From positions 14,122 through 78,121 of the forward strand of contig JBCNVM010000005.1 in the NCBI GenBank assembly GCA_039630085.1: a stretch of 64,000 nucleotides of DNA. Direction: 5' to 3'. Source of the stretch: Candidatus Caldarchaeales archaeon. Its GTDB lineage: Archaea > Thermoproteota > Nitrososphaeria_A > Caldarchaeales > Calditenuaceae. Numbering within the stretch: position 1 is the stretch's first letter; each line of letters opens with the position of its first letter. The notes under the pieces were generated by a model, which saw only the letters and a list, made by a program, of their open reading frames with translations, was not told where the DNA came from and did not search any database. Both the position numbers and the translations under genes were made by a program. Shown here piece after piece: positions 50,467 through 54,643 of the stretch.

Positions 50467-50655
50467 TTGGCGGTCCAGCTCAGGGCCAGGAGCGGGCTGA
50501 GGCCCCTTACCGTGAGGCTGCCGGAGGCGTACCTCGACGCGCTGGAGGAGCTGGTCGACTCGGGGGTGTACGCGAGCGTCGCCGAGGCCGTCCGCATGGC
50601 GATAAGGGACCTGATCTCGAGGGAGGGTTTCCTGATCAGGTCGGAGCGGAGATGA
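50467..50655 (+). CDS. ribbon-helix-helix (CopG/Arc-family) DNA-binding protein
   Basis: Beta-strand (LTVRLPEAYLD) followed by two helices in about 60 aa. TATA gcttaaatcgg upstream. Confidence 0.6.
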   Translation: MAVQLRARSGLRPLTVRLPEAYLDALEELVDSGVYASVAEAVRMAIRDLISREGFLIRSERR

Positions 50656-51074
50656 GCCGGAGCCTGATGGTCGAGGAGGTCGAGGACGCGCTGCTCGGGA
50701 TCGCGGAGAGGCTGAAGGGTGAGGGCCTGATCGCGGCCGTGGCGAGGGATCTCACGCCGCCCGTCTACCCGAGGGTCTACGTCCTCCTGAGGGAGGTGCA
50801 CCTCGCGAGAACCACCGTCGCCGGGAGCGGGCTCAACGTCGACCAGGAGTACGAGGTCGTCGTGGAGAGCTCAGGGCCCGACGCAGCGCTCCAGGCTTCA
50901 GAGGCCGTCAGGGCGGCGGTAAGGTTCGCGGAGCTCGTCCTTTCCGAGGGGCCGAGGGAGGTCGGCGGCCTCCCCCTCGAGCTATTCCCCTACGAGCTGA
51001 GGGTGGTCGATGTCCTCGAGTCGGGGAGGAGGTCGACGGTCGTCTCGGTGCGCGTGAGGGCCCGCGTTGGCTGA
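50652..51074 (+). CDS. hypothetical protein translationally coupled (ATGA) to the RHH gene
   Basis: 140-aa ORF starting at the ATG at 50652. No domain recognised. Its 3' end overlaps a minus-strand ORF. Confidence 0.45.
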   Translation: MSRSLMVEEVEDALLGIAERLKGEGLIAAVARDLTPPVYPRVYVLLREVHLARTTVAGSGLNVDQEYEVVVESSGPDAALQASEAVRAAVRFAELVLSEGPREVGGLPLELFPYELRVVDVLESGRRSTVVSVRVRARVG

Positions 51075-51519
51075 CCCCTTCCTCGGGCCTACCTCCCAGT
51101 AGCCTCATCAGCGCCAGAGAGAGCGCCGTCACGGCGACGCCCAAAGGAAGGAGGATCGGAGAGGCCGTCCTGAAGTCCCTCCTCGTGGCGACCAGCATCG
51201 CGACGCCGACGCCGTAGGCCGTGCCGAGCGCTGCGACCGCCCTCCTGAAGATGATGGACCTCTCGGTATAGGCGAGTCCTGCAGCGGCCGCGAGGGCCAT
51301 CGAGCCCGCTGCCAGAAGGGCCAGCGACTCCGCGGACCTCCCCCTCACTCTGATCTCGTACTCCTCGAAGTGGACCGGCAGGTCGCCGAAGAGAGGGACG
51401 TGGAGCTCCCTCACGACGGTCCTCCTGACGAGCTCCGACTCGGGCGAAGAGAGCATGAGCCCCCCTGCCAGCAGAACTAGGGCGGCGAACGCGAGCCCGA
51501 CAATCAGCGCGGCCCTCAT
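50908..51519 (-). CDS. membrane protein (4 TM) with an R/P-rich low-complexity tail; doubtful 3' extent
   Basis: Hydrophobic N-terminal 140 aa. The last roughly 55 codons run antisense to the 50652-51074 gene and look like shadow sequence. Confidence 0.35.
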   Translation of the reverse strand: MRAALIVGLAFAALVLLAGGLMLSSPESELVRRTVVRELHVPLFGDLPVHFEEYEIRVRGRSAESLALLAAGSMALAAAAGLAYTERSIIFRRAVAALGTAYGVGVAMLVATRRDFRTASPILLPLGVAVTALSLALMRLLGGRPEEGVSQRGPSRAPRRPSTSSPTRGHRPPSARRGIARGGGRRPPSAPRKGRAPRTLPPP

Positions 51520-51806
51520 CTCCCCGAGCCCCTCCGGGAAGCGACGAGGGCGCCCAGCAGGTCGTTCAGCAGCGTCACTGTCCCGCCTGTGAGGAGCATC
51601 TGCTCGAGGCGGAGGTCGTCGAGCTCCAGTCCCAAGTGCGCTGAAATCAGGCCGACCAGCGCTCCGAGGGCGACCGTCCTGAGGAACTTCCTCGGGGAGA
51701 ACTCCTCCCGCCTCCTGGACTTGAGGTAGCCCGCGCCGGCGAAGACCGCTCCGTAGAGCGCGCCCAGCAGCGCAGAGGAGAGGCCCAGCTGGACCTCATG
51801 CTCCAA
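51516..51806 (-). CDS. small membrane protein (2-3 TM; holin-like topology)
   Basis: 96 aa with ATGA overlap to the downstream membrane ORF. Confidence 0.4.
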   Translation of the reverse strand: MEHEVQLGLSSALLGALYGAVFAGAGYLKSRRREEFSPRKFLRTVALGALVGLISAHLGLELDDLRLEQMLLTGGTVTLLNDLLGALVASRRGSGR

Positions 51807-52002
51807 CGGCGTACCACCTCTTGGTCCTCGGAGAAAGCCTGACGGAGCTCCCGCAGCATGGGCACCTGAGCGAGCCCCTCCTGTCCTCGCAGCACCTCAG
51901 GGGGAGCGCGACGTCGCAGACCGCACACCACGCGTACCCGAGCCCGTACCTCACCCTCCTCGACGTGCCGTCGATCGAGACGCAGGCCGACCTGCACCTC
52001 AC
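51796..52002 (-). CDS. small Cys-rich zinc-ribbon protein
   Basis: 68 aa with the pattern CAVCD…CC…CPCCG. Confidence 0.35.
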   Translation of the reverse strand: MRCRSACVSIDGTSRRVRYGLGYAWCAVCDVALPLRCCEDRRGSLRCPCCGSSVRLSPRTKRWYAVGA

Positions 52003-52235
52003 CTTCCACCCGACCTCCTCTCAGCCCTCCTGACCATCTCGCTCAGCGAGAGGCCGCCGCCGAAGCTCCCGACGAGCGTCGCCTCTATCGCCCTGCCGGC
52101 CCAGAGGAGCGCCACGAAGGCCACGGCAAGGAAGATCGCCAAGGCCCCGAGCCAGTCCTCGACGCCGAAGCTGACCGTGACTCCTTTCTGGCTCCTCCTC
52201 ACCGTCAGCCTCGCCTCCCTCCTCATCTCACTCAC
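51999..52235 (-). CDS. small membrane protein (1 TM)
   Basis: 78 aa. Overlaps its neighbours by 4-8 nt, typical of a tight operon. Confidence 0.35.
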   Translation of the reverse strand: MSEMRREARLTVRRSQKGVTVSFGVEDWLGALAIFLAVAFVALLWAGRAIEATLVGSFGGGLSLSEMVRRAERRSGGR

Positions 52236-52554
52236 CCGTCAGGAGCACCGTGCCCCTCGACCGGACGTCCTCCGAGAGGGCCGCGAGCTCCTCCCTCACG
52301 GCTCTCAGCAGGGCCGCGGCCTCCTCCCTCCTCGTCGACCTCCACGCGAGAAAGAGGAGCGCGGCGATGGTGCTGGAGAGCTTCCTGATCCTCATCGGCG
52401 GGTCTGCGAGCGGGACCCGGTGACCGTGGGACTGGAGGGTCGCGTCGATCAGGGACTCAGCCTCTTCTAAGAACACCGCCAGCAGCTGATCGAGTGACGC
52501 GTCGTCCTCTTGAAGTCCGACCTTGACCCTCACGTCCCGGATCGAGCCGTACAT
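52228..52554 (-). CDS. phage gp6-like head-tail connector / DNA-packaging protein family candidate
   Basis: 108 aa. Resembles Phage_connect_1-type proteins (an N-terminal L..DD..D..L..A.E.I segment and a central hydrophobic helix LSSTIAALLFLAWRSTRREEAA). The assignment is from memory of the family, not a search. Confidence 0.4.
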   Translation of the reverse strand: MYGSIRDVRVKVGLQEDDASLDQLLAVFLEEAESLIDATLQSHGHRVPLADPPMRIRKLSSTIAALLFLAWRSTRREEAAALLRAVREELAALSEDVRSRGTVLLTGE

Positions 52555-52677
52555 CGAACTTCGGGAACTCAGGTAACGGATTAGCCCTCGCTATGTTGAA
52601 AGATTGTTTTCAAAACTCAACCTCACCAAAATTCAAAAAACAGCTAGCCAGTAAACCGGGGCTTATCTGAAGGGGCC
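52555..52677. promoter_or_regulatory. AT-rich divergent intergenic/promoter region (markedly lower GC than surroundings)
   Basis: tatgttgaaagattgttttcaaaactcaacctcaccaaaattcaaaaaacagc lies between a minus-strand small-ORF operon and a plus-strand operon. Confidence 0.5.
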
Positions 52678-53022
52678 GTGGCCAGCAGGAGGGTGAGGGA
52701 GCTCCTGAAGGGAGTGAGGGAGGGGGAGCTGGTTGTGGTGAAGTGGTGGGACGCGTGCACTTGGAGGGACGTCCCGAACTCGGTCAGGAACCCGGAGAAG
52801 GTCGACAGCCCCATCTACTCGATCGGTGCGTTCGGAGGACTGGTCAGGGGAGAGAGGATCGAGTACCTGCGGCTGGTGGTGGAGAGGAAGCCCGAGACGA
52901 GCGACATCACGTACATCCCCGTCCAGCTGGTCGAGAGCGTCGGGAGGGAGAGGTTCAGTGCACCGAAGAAGGGCGTGAGGAACTACCTCGACAACGTGAG
53001 GTACTACGGTGACGGGCGTTGA
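52678..53022 (+). CDS. hypothetical protein (first gene of the terminase operon)
   Basis: 114-aa ORF with no domain call. Confidence 0.4.
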   Translation: MASRRVRELLKGVREGELVVVKWWDACTWRDVPNSVRNPEKVDSPIYSIGAFGGLVRGERIEYLRLVVERKPETSDITYIPVQLVESVGRERFSAPKKGVRNYLDNVRYYGDGR

Positions 53023-53333
53023 GAGGCTCCCTGAGCCGGAGGGTCACGAGGGTCGAGAGGGGGCTCGCGAGGATCGCGAGGGCCGTTGAGAGGAGGTCGC
53101 AGGAGGGGCAGGCGCCGTCGGACTGGAGGCGGCTCGAGGAGGAGGTCTGGTCGCTGGTCCAGGAGGCCTGCTCGCTTTCACAGGCCGCGAAGTCCAAGGG
53201 CGACATCAGGACTTCCCAGGCCTGCGTTGGAATGGCACTGAGGGGGCTGGCGCTGCTGGGGAGGCTGAGGAGGGAACGGGAGCTGGAGGAGATCAGGGCC
53301 CTTGTCGAGCGGATGGAGGGCGGGTCGGGGTGA
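53019..53333 (+). CDS. small helical protein, candidate terminase small subunit / DNA-binding partner
   Basis: 104 aa, predicted alpha-helical and basic. ATGA-coupled immediately upstream of the large terminase. Confidence 0.35.
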   Translation: MRGSLSRRVTRVERGLARIARAVERRSQEGQAPSDWRRLEEEVWSLVQEACSLSQAAKSKGDIRTSQACVGMALRGLALLGRLRRERELEEIRALVERMEGGSG

Positions 53334-54643
53334 GTCCCGCGGTCCCGAGGGAGCTGAGGAGGCGGGTCGAGGCTCTGAGGAGATTGAGGGAGTCGGGGCG
53401 AGTCCGCGTCCCAGAGGACCCGCTCGAGTTCGCGGTCGGGTTCCTCTCTTGGAGGCCCTTCCCCTATCAGGCCGACCTCCTCACGGACGCGAGCCCGAGG
53501 ATCTGCGTCTGTGCCGCGAGGCAGGTGGGGAAGTCGACGACTGCGGCCGCGAAGGTCCTCCACCTCTGCCTGACCAAGCCGGGCTCGAGGGCGCTGGTGG
53601 TCGCGCCGACGTTGAGGCAGAGCGCGCTCTTCCTCGAGAGGGTCGAGGATCACCTGAGGTCCTCCAGGGCAGGGCCCTCGCTGGTCGCGGGACGGGACAG
53701 GACCTCGGTCAGGTTCGTCAACGGCAGCAGGGTCGTCGCGCTTCCCTCGGGGAGGTTCGGCCACACGATAAGGGGCTTCACCGCGGACCTCGTCGTTGTC
53801 GACGAAGCGGCCTTCGTCCCGGAGGAGGTGATAACGCAGGCCTTGATGCCTCAGGTCGCGACGACCGGCGGGAGCTTCCTGATGATCAGCACGCCCTGGG
53901 ACAAGAACCACGTCTTCTACAGGTGCTTCACCAGCGGCGACTGGAGCGTGAAGAGGTGGCCCGTGAGCGTCTGCCCCCTGATCCCCAGCGGGTTCATCGA
54001 GGAGCAGAGGAGGTTGATCGGCGACGAGGCGTTCAGGAGGGAGTACCTCGCGGAGTTCGTCGAGGACGCCGCGTCTTTCTTCTCGGCGGACCTGATCAGG
54101 AGGTGCGTGGACGACTACGAGGCCCGGCCCAGCGGCGACACTGAGCTGACCGCGGGCTTCGACTGGGGAGGCAGGTCGGACCCAAACGCGCTGGTCGTCG
54201 TCGAGCGGAGGGCCGAAGTCCTCAGGGTTGTCCACGTCGAGTCCTGGATGAGCGACAGCTACACCTACTCGGCCTCGAGGGTCGCGAGGCTCCAGAGGGA
54301 GATGGGGTTCAGGGTCGTGCTGGAGGAGATCGGCGCGGGTCTCCTGATCAGGGAGCAGCTGGAGTCCCACGGAGTCGAGGTGATCGGAGTGGGTCCAGCG
54401 GATATCGAGAGGACGATGCTGCTGCTGAGGGTCCTGATGGAGTCGGGGAGGCTGAGGACGTACCTCGACAACAGGCTGATCGACTCGCTGCGGGCTGTCA
54501 AGCACGAGAGGACGAAGGGAGGAAGGGTGAGGTTCTACCACGAGCCGGGGACCCACGACGACCTCGCCAGGGCGCTCGCGCTGGCCGCGTGGGGAGCGAC
54601 AGTCTCGGGCTCCGGAGCGACCGCCTCGCTCTTGGAGGCATGA
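53330..54643 (+). CDS. terL: phage terminase large subunit-like protein (ATPase + RNase-H-like nuclease)
   Basis: Terminase ATPase motifs: Q-motif FPYQADLL, Walker A CAARQVGKST, VVAPTLRQS, Walker B LVVVDEAAFV, C-motif LMISTPWD. Nuclease-domain acidic residues: GFDWGGRSD, EEIGAG, HDDLARALALA. Confidence 0.75.
   Translation: MSPAVPRELRRRVEALRRLRESGRVRVPEDPLEFAVGFLSWRPFPYQADLLTDASPRICVCAARQVGKSTTAAAKVLHLCLTKPGSRALVVAPTLRQSALFLERVEDHLRSSRAGPSLVAGRDRTSVRFVNGSRVVALPSGRFGHTIRGFTADLVVVDEAAFVPEEVITQALMPQVATTGGSFLMISTPWDKNHVFYRCFTSGDWSVKRWPVSVCPLIPSGFIEEQRRLIGDEAFRREYLAEFVEDAASFFSADLIRRCVDDYEARPSGDTELTAGFDWGGRSDPNALVVVERRAEVLRVVHVESWMSDSYTYSASRVARLQREMGFRVVLEEIGAGLLIREQLESHGVEVIGVGPADIERTMLLLRVLMESGRLRTYLDNRLIDSLRAVKHERTKGGRVRFYHEPGTHDDLARALALAAWGATVSGSGATASLLEA

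What the first reader, a model, noticed from the sequence alone, without database searches (positions are those of the whole stretch)
51516..52554. Tight operon of four tiny overlapping ORFs (connector-like, TM, Zn-ribbon, TM), reminiscent of viral accessory/lysis cassettes
The four ORFs of 108, 78, 68 and 96 aa overlap by 4-10 nt. This layout is typical of phage morphogenesis or lysis modules and of satellite interference genes, not of archaeal housekeeping operons. The first ORF has the pattern I associate with gp6-like head-tail connectors. The two TM proteins have holin-like size and topology.
Basis: inference. Interest (0 to 1): 0.55.

Follow-up and report, generated by a model that had tools for sequence, protein, structure and literature searches.

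The report
Capsid-less tailed-virus relic kept by archaea
The four tiny overlapping genes are real and come from a head-tailed virus; they sit in a 12-gene, capsid-less viral remnant that a family of hot-spring archaea has kept intact at one chromosomal site, which suggests the host now uses it.

Summary
ORF2 most likely starts at the conserved ATG (75 aa, not 78). A fifth gene (203 aa, four membrane helices) belongs to the same minus-strand operon.

All five genes are conserved in seven related contigs of Calditenuaceae (Caldarchaeales, formerly Aigarchaeota). dN/dS for ORF1-4 is 0.05-0.38, and synonymous divergence equals that of the neighbouring argF.

ORF1 is a head-tail adaptor of the gp6 / Mu gp36 kind. 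ORF4 belongs to a small membrane-protein family also found just after the tail-fibre genes in tailed-virus contigs. Its model resembles holins, but not significantly. ORF3 is a zinc ribbon with a relative in another Aigarchaeota provirus. ORF2 was found only in this cassette.

The operon lies in a 5.8 kb, 12-gene cassette. Six of its genes are collinear with a genuine 30.7 kb tailed-virus contig. The cassette has no portal, capsid, tail or integrase gene and no att repeats, and it always sits next to argF.

Best reading: a vertically inherited, selectively maintained relic of a tailed virus. Its proteins can only act on capsids made by something else, most plausibly by interfering with related viruses. 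That function is inferred, not shown.

The holin and lysis call is unproven.

The parts
52228..52554 (-). ORF1, 108 aa: head-tail adaptor (gp6 / Mu gp36 superfamily); first gene of the operon
   Evidence: Pfam Phage_Mu_Gp36 E=1.8e-4, 22.1 bits against a cutoff of 24.7. A profile search of 1.8 billion representatives gave only 9 hits; the distant ones P0007, P0008, P0011 and P0012 pass the cutoff for PF07030, and P0007 and P0011 also pass for PF05135. AF2 pLDDT 80, three helices. Top Foldseek hit in PDB is 5ydn, Mu neck subunit, prob 0.97, TM 0.54. Top hit in BFVD is 'Mu Gp36'. 33% identity, E=1e-19, to the adaptor heading the neck-tail operon of virus contig L101. dN/dS 0.16-0.25.
51999..52226 (-). 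ORF2, 75 aa from the conserved ATG (78 aa if from the GTG at 52235): single-pass membrane protein with basic ends
   Evidence: One hydrophobic segment, Kyte-Doolittle 2.45. The non-membrane parts (MRRExRLTVRR and LEATLVGSFGGGLSLSEMVRR) are the best conserved. dN/dS 0.09-0.18. No relative in IMG/VR. The only JGI metagenome hit is another copy of the same cassette.
51796..52002 (-). ORF3, 68 aa: cysteine-rich zinc-ribbon protein
   Evidence: Invariant C3, C7, C26, C29, C47, C49 and C50. BLASTP E=4e-7 to a 101 aa zinc-ribbon protein beside the capsid-adaptor genes of Aigarchaeota provirus L014. dN/dS 0.05-0.26. No Pfam or PHROG family.
51516..51806 (-). ORF4, 96 aa: three-helix small membrane protein with motif AGAGYLKS...KFL.T; candidate holin-like protein
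   Evidence: The family has 19 proteins. Members lie immediately after tail-fibre genes, among other small membrane proteins, in virus contigs L096/L097 and L098. AF2 pLDDT 81, helices 2-29, 38-57 and 67-93. BFVD top hits are enriched in holins, prob 0.8-0.93, but E is 0.36-1. dN/dS 0.12-0.38.
50908..51519 (-). ORF5, 203 aa: four-helix membrane protein with an Arg-rich tail; fifth gene of the operon, not in the original finding
   Evidence: Four hydrophobic segments. Homologous to the 177 aa membrane protein encoded directly after the adaptor in virus L101, which has the same architecture: tblastn E=1.2e-4, BLASTP E=0.002. Intact in all lineages. dN/dS 0.29-0.48. The last 167 nt overlap p140 antisense.
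50652..51074 (+). p140, 140 aa: neck protein homologue (head-closure or tail-completion position), inverted relative to the virus order
   Evidence: BLASTP E=7e-9 (31.5% over 92 aa) to the L101 145 aa protein, which lies between the adaptor and the HK97 gp10-like Neck1 gene. Weak Pfam Tail_completion_gp17 hit, E=0.021, in only 1 of 6 orthologues.
50467..50655 (+). RHH, 62 aa: ribbon-helix-helix (CopG-type) regulator; 4 nt overlap with p140
   Evidence: Pfam RHH_1 E=1e-6, above cutoff. dN/dS 0.09-0.20.
52555..52677 (.). 123 bp A+T-rich divergent intergenic region between the ORF1 operon and the terminase operon
   Evidence: Sequence. Conserved blocks across five lineages, and the ORF1 start ATGTACGGCTC is conserved in all. 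Virus L101 has the same divergent layout. Promoter function is inferred.
52678..53022 (+). p114, 114 aa: the most conserved small protein, function unknown; first gene of the terminase operon
   Evidence: dN/dS 0.09-0.11. BLASTP E=2e-6 to the L101 141 aa protein in the same position. A relative lies next to ABC-GNAT in L015.
53019..53333 (+). p104, 104 aa: protein directly upstream of TerL; small-terminase candidate by position only
   Evidence: BLASTP E=2e-4 to the C-terminal part of the L101 174 aa protein upstream of TerL. No family hit.
53330..54643 (+). TerL, 437 aa: large terminase with both the ATPase and the nuclease domain
   Evidence: Pfam Terminase_6N E=2e-15 and Terminase_6C E=4e-8. 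PHROG 2 E=4e-44. Aligns to solved TerL ATPase (4zni) and nuclease (5m1f) domains, with Walker A RQVGKS and Walker B VVVDEAA present. dN/dS 0.11-0.17.
54640..56109 (+). ABC-type ATPase fused to a GNAT acetyltransferase, 489 aa
   Evidence: Pfam ABC_tran and Acetyltransf_1. PHROG 293 and 11143. The family is common in Nitrososphaerota and lies in provirus-like regions L013 and L014. Such an ABC-GNAT protein was predicted by others to acylate a DNA base (PMC7824862).
56069..56275 (-). 68 aa small protein, convergent with ABC-GNAT; possible second regulator at the cassette edge
   Evidence: ORF. The L002 orthologue has a weak Pfam PSK_trans_fac hit, E=0.01. A 66 aa counterpart occupies the same position in L011 and L099.

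Best explanation
**What it is.** The four ORFs are real protein-coding genes. With a fifth gene they form one translationally coupled operon: adaptor, 1-TM protein, zinc ribbon, 3-helix membrane protein, 4-TM protein. The operon is the 'neck plus membrane' arm of a 5.8 kb, 12-gene cassette derived from a head-tailed virus. The other arm is transcribed divergently and encodes p114, p104, a complete large terminase and an ABC-ATPase/GNAT enzyme. Small regulator-type genes sit at both edges.

**What it has lost.** The cassette has no portal, capsid, tail, replication or integration genes. It has been inherited vertically beside argF throughout the family Calditenuaceae, with every gene under purifying selection.

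**How it most likely works (inferred).** An adaptor and a neck protein can only work on a portal or capsid, and none is encoded here. The cassette must therefore act in trans on particles built by another virus or by another locus. The two operons keep the divergent morphogenetic (by analogy, late) promoter layout of the parent virus. They may therefore be switched on when a related virus infects. Their products (terminase, adaptor, neck protein, membrane proteins) would then interfere with that virus's packaging, head completion, entry or timing of lysis. This would give the host superinfection immunity or abortive-infection-like protection.

**Rough confidence by step.**
- Real genes: 0.97.
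- Relic of a tailed virus: 0.9.
- Vertically fixed and selectively maintained: 0.85.
- Acts in trans on foreign capsids: 0.6.
- Specifically antiviral interference: 0.35.
For: **Genes are real.** They are intact in seven related contigs. dN/dS is 0.05-0.48, and third-position substitutions dominate.

**Viral origin.**
- TerL is strongly supported.
- ORF1 is an adaptor.
- Six cassette genes are collinear with virus contig L101. That contig also carries a capsid protein, scaffold, a weak portal match, a Neck1 protein, tail tube, tape measure and fibres. Its order is 141, 174, 135, TerL on one side of the divergent region and adaptor, 4-TM protein, 145 aa neck protein on the other.
- ORF4 relatives occur in virus contigs L097 and L098.
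- ORF3 and ABC-GNAT relatives occur in provirus L014.

**Capsid-less and immobile.**
- The cassette's 12 genes, all identified here, include no integrase.
- There are no flanking att-like repeats.
- There is no homologue of L101 or L014 portal, capsid or tube proteins anywhere in the 64 kb window.

**Vertical inheritance.**
- The gene order is the same, always beside argF, in all lineages. The other flank differs between genera.
- dS of cassette genes matches dS of argF pair by pair. For window versus L002 it is 0.24-0.38 against 0.37; for window versus L005 it is 0.75-1.7 against 0.91.

**Decay elsewhere.** A Thaumarchaeota contig (L015) has a p114-like gene, a 54 aa TerL remnant and ABC-GNAT. 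So the module does erode when not maintained.

**Enzymes look active.** TerL Walker A and B motifs and both domains are present.
Against: - There is no direct evidence of expression or of any antiviral effect.
- PADLOC gives only generic P-loop matches.
- Purifying selection on all 12 genes would also be expected for a GTA-like system, or for a split provirus with its structural genes elsewhere in the genome. I could not search whole genomes.
- The assignment of p140 to a specific neck role is weak.
- The ORF5 link to L101 rests on a 45-50 residue match (E 1e-4 to 2e-3).
- Several homology E-values come from pairwise or small-database searches.
Confidence: 0.55

Rival explanations
1. A lysis (holin) cassette plus neck gene of an active, inducible provirus. 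ORF2, ORF4 and ORF5 would be holins that time host lysis for a virus encoded here.
For: ORF4 relatives lie just after tail-fibre genes among other small membrane proteins, the classical position of a lysis module. In L096/L097 they follow a 314 aa protein with a weak transglutaminase-like protease hit. The ORF4 model resembles annotated holins in BFVD. Size, membrane helices and charged ends fit holins.
Against: The cassette, and the window's homology scan for structural genes, show no portal, capsid or tail gene. The cassette has no integrase, no replication gene and no lytic enzyme. There are no att repeats. The site is fixed and dS matches the host's. No holin profile matches in Pfam or PHROGs. 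Foldseek E-values are 0.36-1, and most small three-helix viral membrane proteins in BFVD are labelled holin anyway. In virus L101 the ORF5-type membrane protein lies inside the neck module, not in a lysis module.
Confidence: 0.08
2. A helper-dependent satellite, or an in-situ packaging element. Its own terminase would package the locus, or adjacent host DNA, into capsids of a helper tailed virus, with the adaptor and neck protein adapting those capsids.
For: TerL with upstream small proteins looks complete and active, but there is no capsid in cis. Neck proteins need partners supplied in trans. Related tailed viruses exist (L101). Prophage regions are reported in Caldarchaeales genomes, including C. 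fumarioli (PMC10547907).
Against: No integrase, excisionase or replication gene. No att repeats. Identical chromosomal position and host-like dS in all lineages. No copy in IMG/VR: the best TerL identity there is 33%, and there are no hits for ORF1, ORF2 or ORF3.
Confidence: 0.12
3. One locus of a dispersed, domesticated gene-transfer-agent-like system or split provirus, with portal, capsid and tail genes conserved elsewhere in the genome.
For: Family-wide vertical conservation and purifying selection on packaging and neck genes are what gene-transfer agents show. Gene-transfer-agent genes can be spread over several loci (established knowledge of RcGTA).
Against: No structural gene lies in the 64 kb window or in the roughly 20 kb flanks of six other lineages. 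The prophage survey of C. fumarioli did not list this contig in its prophage table. I could not test this genome-wide.
Confidence: 0.15
4. Chance ORFs in G+C-rich DNA, or a neutrally decaying prophage scar with no function.
For: Many long spurious ORFs occur in this 65% G+C window. The ORF5 tail is low-complexity and overlaps p140 antisense.
Against: All frames are intact in seven contigs at dS up to more than 1. dN/dS is far below 1, and the codon-position pattern is as expected for coding sequence. A decayed counterpart in L015 shows what erosion looks like.
Confidence: 0.03

Closest known systems
Head-tail adaptor proteins of tailed phages (HK97 gp6 / Pfam PF05135 Phage_connect_1; Mu gp36 / PF07030, PDB 5ydn)
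   Same: ORF1 has the same size, a helical fold with Mu gp36 as the best structural match, profile links through intermediate sequences, and a homologue at the head of a neck-tail operon.
   Different: ORF1 itself scores just below the Pfam cutoff (22.1 against 24.7 bits). It is encoded without a portal or capsid gene and is followed by membrane and zinc-ribbon proteins rather than head-closure and tail genes.
Domesticated defective prophages of bacteria (remnants under purifying selection; established knowledge, e.g. Bobay et al. 2014 PNAS, cited from memory and not read here)
   Same: A remnant lacking essential virus genes, vertically inherited, with dN/dS well below 1.
   Different: The host is archaeal (Calditenuaceae). 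All 12 retained genes are intact in every lineage seen. The retained set is unusual: terminase plus ABC-GNAT plus two neck proteins plus three membrane proteins.
Phage satellites (PICI, capsid-forming PICI and similar)
   Same: A small element carrying packaging and head-completion genes but depending on capsids or tails made by another virus.
   Different: No integrase, replication module or att sites. Fixed chromosomal site with host-like divergence. No sign of mobility.
Phage holins (e.g. LydA, holin superfamily III)
   Same: ORF4 is a 96 aa three-helix membrane protein with a basic C-terminus. Its relatives follow tail-fibre genes, and holins dominate its fold matches.
   Different: No sequence-profile membership. 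Fold E-values are not significant. No lytic enzyme in the cassette. No holin is known to me for archaeal tailed viruses (own knowledge).
ABC-ATPase/GNAT fusion proteins of phages, predicted by Iyer et al. 2013 to make a DNA base acyl modification (cited in PMC7824862)
   Same: The cassette's 489 aa protein has the same domain fusion and matches phage families PHROG 293 and 11143.
   Different: Here it is fixed in a cellular chromosome directly after TerL. Its biochemical activity is untested anywhere, to my knowledge.

Membership tests
gp6 / Mu gp36 head-tail adaptor superfamily (PF05135, PF07030) | Sequence-profile match at or above the curated cutoff | tested here: inconclusive
   ORF1 itself scores 22.1 bits against PF07030, cutoff 24.7, E=1.8e-4. 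Proteins found with the ORF1 profile at E 4e-6 to 7e-4 (P0007, P0008, P0011, P0012) pass the PF07030 cutoff, and P0007 and P0011 also pass PF05135. Membership is therefore transitive.
gp6 / Mu gp36 head-tail adaptor superfamily (PF05135, PF07030) | Adaptor fold (helical core as in Mu gp36, PDB 5ydn) | tested here: met
   AF2 pLDDT 80. 5ydn is the top PDB hit, prob 0.97, TM 0.54, 21% identity. 'Mu Gp36' is the top BFVD hit, prob 0.91. The E-values (0.36-0.45) are not significant alone; the weight comes from agreement with the sequence profile.
gp6 / Mu gp36 head-tail adaptor superfamily (PF05135, PF07030) | Encoded in the morphogenetic module of a tailed virus, next to capsid or neck genes | tested here: met
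   Met for the homologue: the L101 116 aa protein (33% identical, E=1e-19) opens the neck-tail operon of a virus contig. In the window itself the capsid and tail genes are absent.
gp6 / Mu gp36 head-tail adaptor superfamily (PF05135, PF07030) | Forms a 12-mer ring on the portal | not testable with these tools
   Needs multimer modelling or experiment.
Holins | Small membrane protein with at least one TM helix and a charged C-terminus | tested here: met
   ORF2 has one TM helix. ORF4 has three helices and ends in RRGSGR. ORF5 has four TM helices and an Arg-rich tail.
Holins | Membership of a described holin family by sequence profile | tested here: not met
   No holin family among the Pfam, PHROG or NCBIfam matches for ORF2, ORF4 or ORF5.
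Holins | Adjacent to a cell-envelope-degrading enzyme in a lysis cassette | tested here: not met
   The cassette has no such enzyme. Only in virus L096/L097 is an ORF4 relative two genes after a 314 aa protein with a weak Peptidase_C93 hit, E=8e-4, below cutoff.
Holins | Permeabilises the membrane at a programmed time | not testable with these tools
   Experimental.
Intact integrated provirus (Caudoviricetes) | Portal, HK97-fold capsid protein and tail genes together with terminase | tested here: not met
   Only TerL, the adaptor and one neck homologue are present. tblastn with L101 and L014 capsid, portal and tube proteins finds nothing in the window. Gene tables of the relatives show the same.
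Intact integrated provirus (Caudoviricetes) | Integrase and flanking att repeats | tested here: not met
   The cassette's 12 genes include no integrase. Only short chance repeats flank it.
Phage satellite (PICI-like) | Integrase, own replication module, and mobility between genomes or sites | tested here: not met
   None of these genes is present. The same site beside argF is used in all lineages, and dS equals that of argF.
Gene transfer agent | Complete head-tail structural gene set conserved in the host genome | not testable with these tools
   Absent from the window and the fetched flanks.
Known anti-phage defence systems (PADLOC-DB v2) | Match to a defence-system protein model | tested here: not met
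   Only weak generic P-loop matches (mad3, mad8) for ABC-GNAT and TerL, and a marginal PDC-M32A hit for ORF1.

The most novel reading that the evidence does not exclude
A whole archaeal family has domesticated a capsid-less module of a tailed virus as a new kind of cellular system. The module comprises an active terminase motor, a DNA-modifying ABC-GNAT enzyme, a ring-forming adaptor, a neck protein and three membrane proteins. It could be a virus-triggered interference or abortive-infection device built from structural decoys. More radically, it could be a membrane-anchored DNA translocation or gene-transfer apparatus that needs no capsid of its own. In addition, the ORF4 family would be the first recognisable holin-type egress protein of archaeal tailed viruses.
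Probability: 0.15. Interest if true: 0.8.

Novelty: new variant of a known kind. Interest (0 to 1): 0.5.

Why it matters
Selectively maintained prophage remnants are well known in bacteria. To my knowledge they are much less documented in archaea.

Here an entire family of thermophilic archaea keeps the same 12 virus-derived genes intact, without any capsid gene. This implies a host-level or trans-acting function for terminase, neck and membrane proteins. It offers a concrete system in which to study virus-derived immunity or gene transfer in archaea.

The work also links unannotated small-protein families to archaeal-type tailed viruses. These are the ORF4 'AGAGYLKS' family, the ORF5-type 4-TM protein encoded inside the neck module, and the ORF3 zinc ribbon. 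To my knowledge, how archaeal tailed viruses exit the cell is largely unknown, so the ORF4 family is a testable candidate.

Tried and rejected
- **Direct family searches.** Pfam, PHROGs, NCBIfam and PADLOC scans of ORF2-5, p114, p104 and p140 gave nothing above threshold.
- **PDB sequence searches.** ORF1, p140 and p114 profiles gave nothing meaningful.
- **p140 as SPP1 gp17-type tail-completion protein.** Only 1 of 6 orthologues gives the weak Pfam hit. hhalign against SPP1 gp17, gp16.1 and gp15 was negative. I therefore call it only a 'neck protein homologue', through L101.
- **RHH plus p140 as a toxin-antitoxin pair.** Considered because of the 4 nt overlap. Rejected because p140 is homologous to a virus neck-module protein.
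- **IMG/VR scans.** ORF1, ORF2 and ORF3 gave no relatives. The TerL best hit is only 33% identical.
- **Metagenome scan with ORF2.** It returned only another copy of the cassette.
- **att sites.** Only chance-level repeats were found.
- **Literature.** The Iyer et al. 2013 paper on ABC-GNAT could not be opened. A search for COG2401 found nothing. The Caldarchaeales genome paper does not list the C. fumarioli cassette contig in its prophage table.
- **Rfam.** It finds only one tRNA, far from the locus.
Full report
**1. Observation**

The four minus-strand ORFs exist at the stated coordinates: 52228-52554 (108 aa), 51999-52235 (78 aa), 51796-52002 (68 aa) and 51516-51806 (96 aa).

Two corrections are needed.
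- ORF2 most likely starts at the ATG at 52226, giving 75 aa. That start is used or conserved in all relatives. It leaves a 1 nt gap after ORF1 rather than an 8 nt overlap.
- A fifth ORF (50908-51519, 203 aa) overlaps ORF4 by 4 nt and belongs to the same operon.

The remaining junctions overlap by 4 nt (ORF2/ORF3) and 11 nt (ORF3/ORF4).

The window is about 65% G+C and has long open frames on both strands. Openness alone is therefore not evidence of a gene.

**2. The genes are real and under purifying selection**

ORF1 has only four relatives among 5.8 billion protein clusters. All come from Caldarchaeales/Aigarchaeota MAGs. Their contigs carry the same gene order.

A genome scan with TerL, a look-up of an ORF4 relative and a metagenome scan added further lineages: L009-L012, L099 and L103. 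These include Calditenuis fumarioli. tblastn shows every cassette gene intact in each of them.

Nei-Gojobori estimates:

| Gene | dN/dS |
|---|---|
| ORF1 | 0.16-0.25 |
| ORF2 | 0.09-0.18 |
| ORF3 | 0.05-0.26 |
| ORF4 | 0.12-0.38 |
| ORF5 | 0.29-0.48 |
| TerL | 0.11-0.17 |
| argF (housekeeping neighbour) | 0.07-0.12 |

Substitutions fall 48-55% on codon position 3, and position 2 has the fewest.

**3. What each small protein is**

*ORF1 is a head-tail adaptor.*
- Its Pfam match to Phage_Mu_Gp36 is just below cutoff (E=1.8e-4).
- An exhaustive profile search of 1.8 billion representatives gave only nine hits. The distant ones pass the curated cutoff of PF07030, and two of them also pass PF05135 (gp6-like connector).
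- The AlphaFold model has pLDDT 80 and three long helices. Its best PDB match is the Mu neck subunit 5ydn (prob 0.97, TM 0.54). Its best viral-model match is a protein named Mu Gp36.
- The Foldseek E-values are not significant alone. Sequence and structure nonetheless point independently to the same family.

*ORF2* has one strong membrane helix. Its flanking soluble segments are very well conserved. No relative was found outside the cassette.

*ORF3* is a zinc ribbon with seven invariant cysteines. It is related (BLASTP E=4e-7) to a 101 aa protein beside the protease-capsid-adaptor genes of another Aigarchaeota provirus, L014.

*ORF4* belongs to a 19-member family with the motif AGAGYLKS...KFL.T.
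- Beyond Calditenuaceae, members lie in virus contigs L096/L097 (71 kb) and L098 (33 kb). L098 carries capsid, tail-tube and tape-measure genes; L097 carries tail-tube and baseplate/tail-fibre genes.
- In both, the gene comes directly after the tail-fibre genes, among other small membrane proteins.
- Its model (pLDDT 81) has three helices. Annotated holins dominate the best BFVD matches, but with E of 0.36-1.

*ORF5* has four membrane helices and an Arg-rich tail.

**4. The surroundings: a 12-gene cassette**

- Divergently from ORF1, across a conserved 123 bp A+T-rich spacer, lie four genes:
  - p114;
  - p104;
  - a large terminase with both domains and intact Walker motifs;
  - an ABC-ATPase/GNAT fusion.
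- Convergent with ORF5 are a ribbon-helix-helix gene and p140, which overlap by 4 nt.
- A 68 aa gene closes the other end.
- The flanks are host genes. On one side are argF, STT3 and a proteasome subunit. On the other are a metallo-beta-lactamase-fold gene, argC and SMC.
- The cassette contains no integrase, and no att-like repeats flank it.

**5. Decisive comparison with a real virus**

P0006 is the closest ORF1 relative outside the family. It lies on a 30.7 kb contig, L101, which carries:
- a capsid protein;
- a scaffold-type protein;
- a weak portal match;
- TerL;
- an HK97 gp10-like Neck1 protein (PHROG 5, E=1e-17);
- a tail tube, tape measure and fibres.

L101 has the same divergent layout as the cassette. 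On one side the order is 141 aa, 174 aa, 135 aa, TerL and onward to the capsid gene. On the other side it is adaptor, 177 aa four-TM protein, 145 aa protein, 55 aa TM protein, Neck1, tube and tail.

| Cassette gene | L101 counterpart | Identity | E-value |
|---|---|---|---|
| ORF1 | adaptor, 116 aa | 33% | 1e-19 |
| ORF5 | 177 aa membrane protein | 32-38% over 45-50 aa | 1e-4 (tblastn), 2e-3 (BLASTP) |
| p140 | 145 aa protein | 31.5% over 92 aa | 7e-9 |
| p114 | 141 aa protein | 28% | 2e-6 |
| p104 | C-terminal part of the 174 aa protein | 23.5% over 102 aa | 2e-4 |
| TerL | TerL, 531 aa | 32% | 2e-55 (tblastn) |

These E-values are for pairwise or small-database searches.

The cassette therefore corresponds to the promoter-proximal genes of both morphogenetic operons of such a virus. 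Three changes separate it from that layout:
- ORF2-4 lie between the adaptor and the ORF5-type gene.
- p140 is inverted and sits behind an RHH gene.
- ABC-GNAT follows TerL in place of the portal-to-capsid block.

ABC-GNAT is itself common in provirus-like regions of Nitrososphaerota. Others have predicted such an ABC-GNAT protein to acylate a DNA base (PMC7824862). I could not open the primary paper.

**6. Not a live provirus or a satellite**

- No portal, capsid or tube homologue is present in the 64 kb window or in the fetched flanks of the relatives.
- The cassette is always beside argF, while the opposite flank differs between genera.
- Synonymous divergence of cassette genes tracks that of argF pair by pair. 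This indicates vertical co-divergence since the common ancestor of the sampled Calditenuaceae.
- A Thaumarchaeota contig (L015) carries a p114-like gene, a 54 aa C-terminal TerL fragment and an intact ABC-GNAT. The module can therefore erode, which makes its full preservation here meaningful.
- The published prophage table for C. fumarioli does not list the cassette's contig.

**7. Mechanism**

*Shown:*
- The genes are real, virus-derived, translationally coupled and selectively maintained.
- ORF1 is an adaptor.
- TerL has both domains and its Walker motifs intact.

*Inferred:*
- Adaptor and neck proteins work only on portal-containing capsids, and none is encoded in cis. The cassette must therefore act in trans on particles specified elsewhere.
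- The long vertical history and the lack of mobility genes make the host-beneficial version most likely. In that version, late-type promoters fire upon infection by a related virus. The terminase, adaptor, neck and membrane products then disturb packaging, head completion, DNA entry or lysis timing.
- I give the interference model about 0.35, a GTA-like or split system about 0.15, and a satellite or in-situ packaging element about 0.12.
- A holin-like role for ORF4 (and perhaps ORF2 and ORF5) is compatible with any of these, but it is unproven.

**8. Comparison with the known, and verdict**

ORF1 can be filed in the gp6 / Mu gp36 adaptor superfamily, through transitive sequence links and a fold match. 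ORF2-5 belong to no described family. The cassette as a whole resembles domesticated defective prophages of bacteria. It differs in its archaeal host, its capsid-less composition and its complete family-wide preservation.

Its viral and connector interpretation is supported. Its holin and lysis interpretation is only weakly supported. It missed that the locus is a fixed relic.

Novelty: a new variant of a known kind. Interest: 0.5.

Noticed in passing
window 50908-51074: The 3' end of ORF5 (an Arg/Pro/Ser-rich tail) and the 3' end of p140 overlap antisense by 167 nt. The ORF5 tail is poorly conserved in sequence yet stays open in all lineages. This may simply reflect the lack of stop codons opposite a G+C-rich gene.
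   Followed up: partly
window 52579-52590 and 56067-56078: The 12-mer CGAGGGCTAATC occurs, read on the minus strand, in the conserved block upstream of ORF1. It occurs again at the stop codon of the 68 aa gene and the 3' end of ABC-GNAT (repeat family D16). It could be chance or a shared regulator site.
   Followed up: no
L101 10344-11475: In a genuine tailed-virus contig, membrane proteins are interleaved with neck genes: a 177 aa four-TM protein and a 55 aa TM protein lie among adaptor, 145 aa protein and Neck1. This is an unusual place for membrane proteins in a head-tail joining module.
   Followed up: partly
L015 7235-9476: A Thaumarchaeota contig carries an eroded version of the terminase arm: a p114-like gene, a 75 aa gene, a 54 aa fragment matching the TerL C-terminus, and an intact ABC-GNAT. 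ABC-GNAT may therefore be retained on its own.
   Followed up: partly
proteins P0094, P0098, P0103, P0108, P0113, P0116, P0118, P0124, P0129, P0131: Many relatives of the ABC-GNAT protein are about 630 aa and carry an extra ParB-like domain (PF02195).
   Followed up: no
L005 9980-10306, L008 413-739: Public gene calls for the ORF1 orthologues P0003 and P0004 start 7 codons too late. The ATGTACGGCTC (MYGS) start is conserved in all lineages.
   Followed up: yes
L097 13875-20285: The 71 kb virus contig carrying an ORF4 relative combines a DnaE-type DNA polymerase III alpha with UDG and PHP domains, a PriL-like primase domain, an ERCC4 nuclease and a TAGT-family protein. Its host domain is unclear.
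   Followed up: no
L096 8751-9961: Just upstream of the ORF4 relative lie a 314 aa protein with a weak transglutaminase-like cysteine protease hit (Peptidase_C93, E=8e-4) and an 89 aa coiled-coil protein with a C-terminal membrane anchor. Together they could be a lysis cassette of a tailed virus.
   Followed up: partly
window 52955-54556 (minus strand) and others: Very long spurious ORFs run antisense to real genes, for example a 533 aa ORF opposite TerL. This is typical of the 65% G+C composition, and a caution for any ORF-based reading of this window.
   Followed up: yes
window 56619-58489: Two conserved genes of unclear role lie between the cassette and argC: a 294 aa gene with no family, and a 326 aa gene with a metallo-beta-lactamase fold and weak RMMBL hit. 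They are absent from this position in the Calditenuis genus, so they are probably not part of the cassette.
   Followed up: partly
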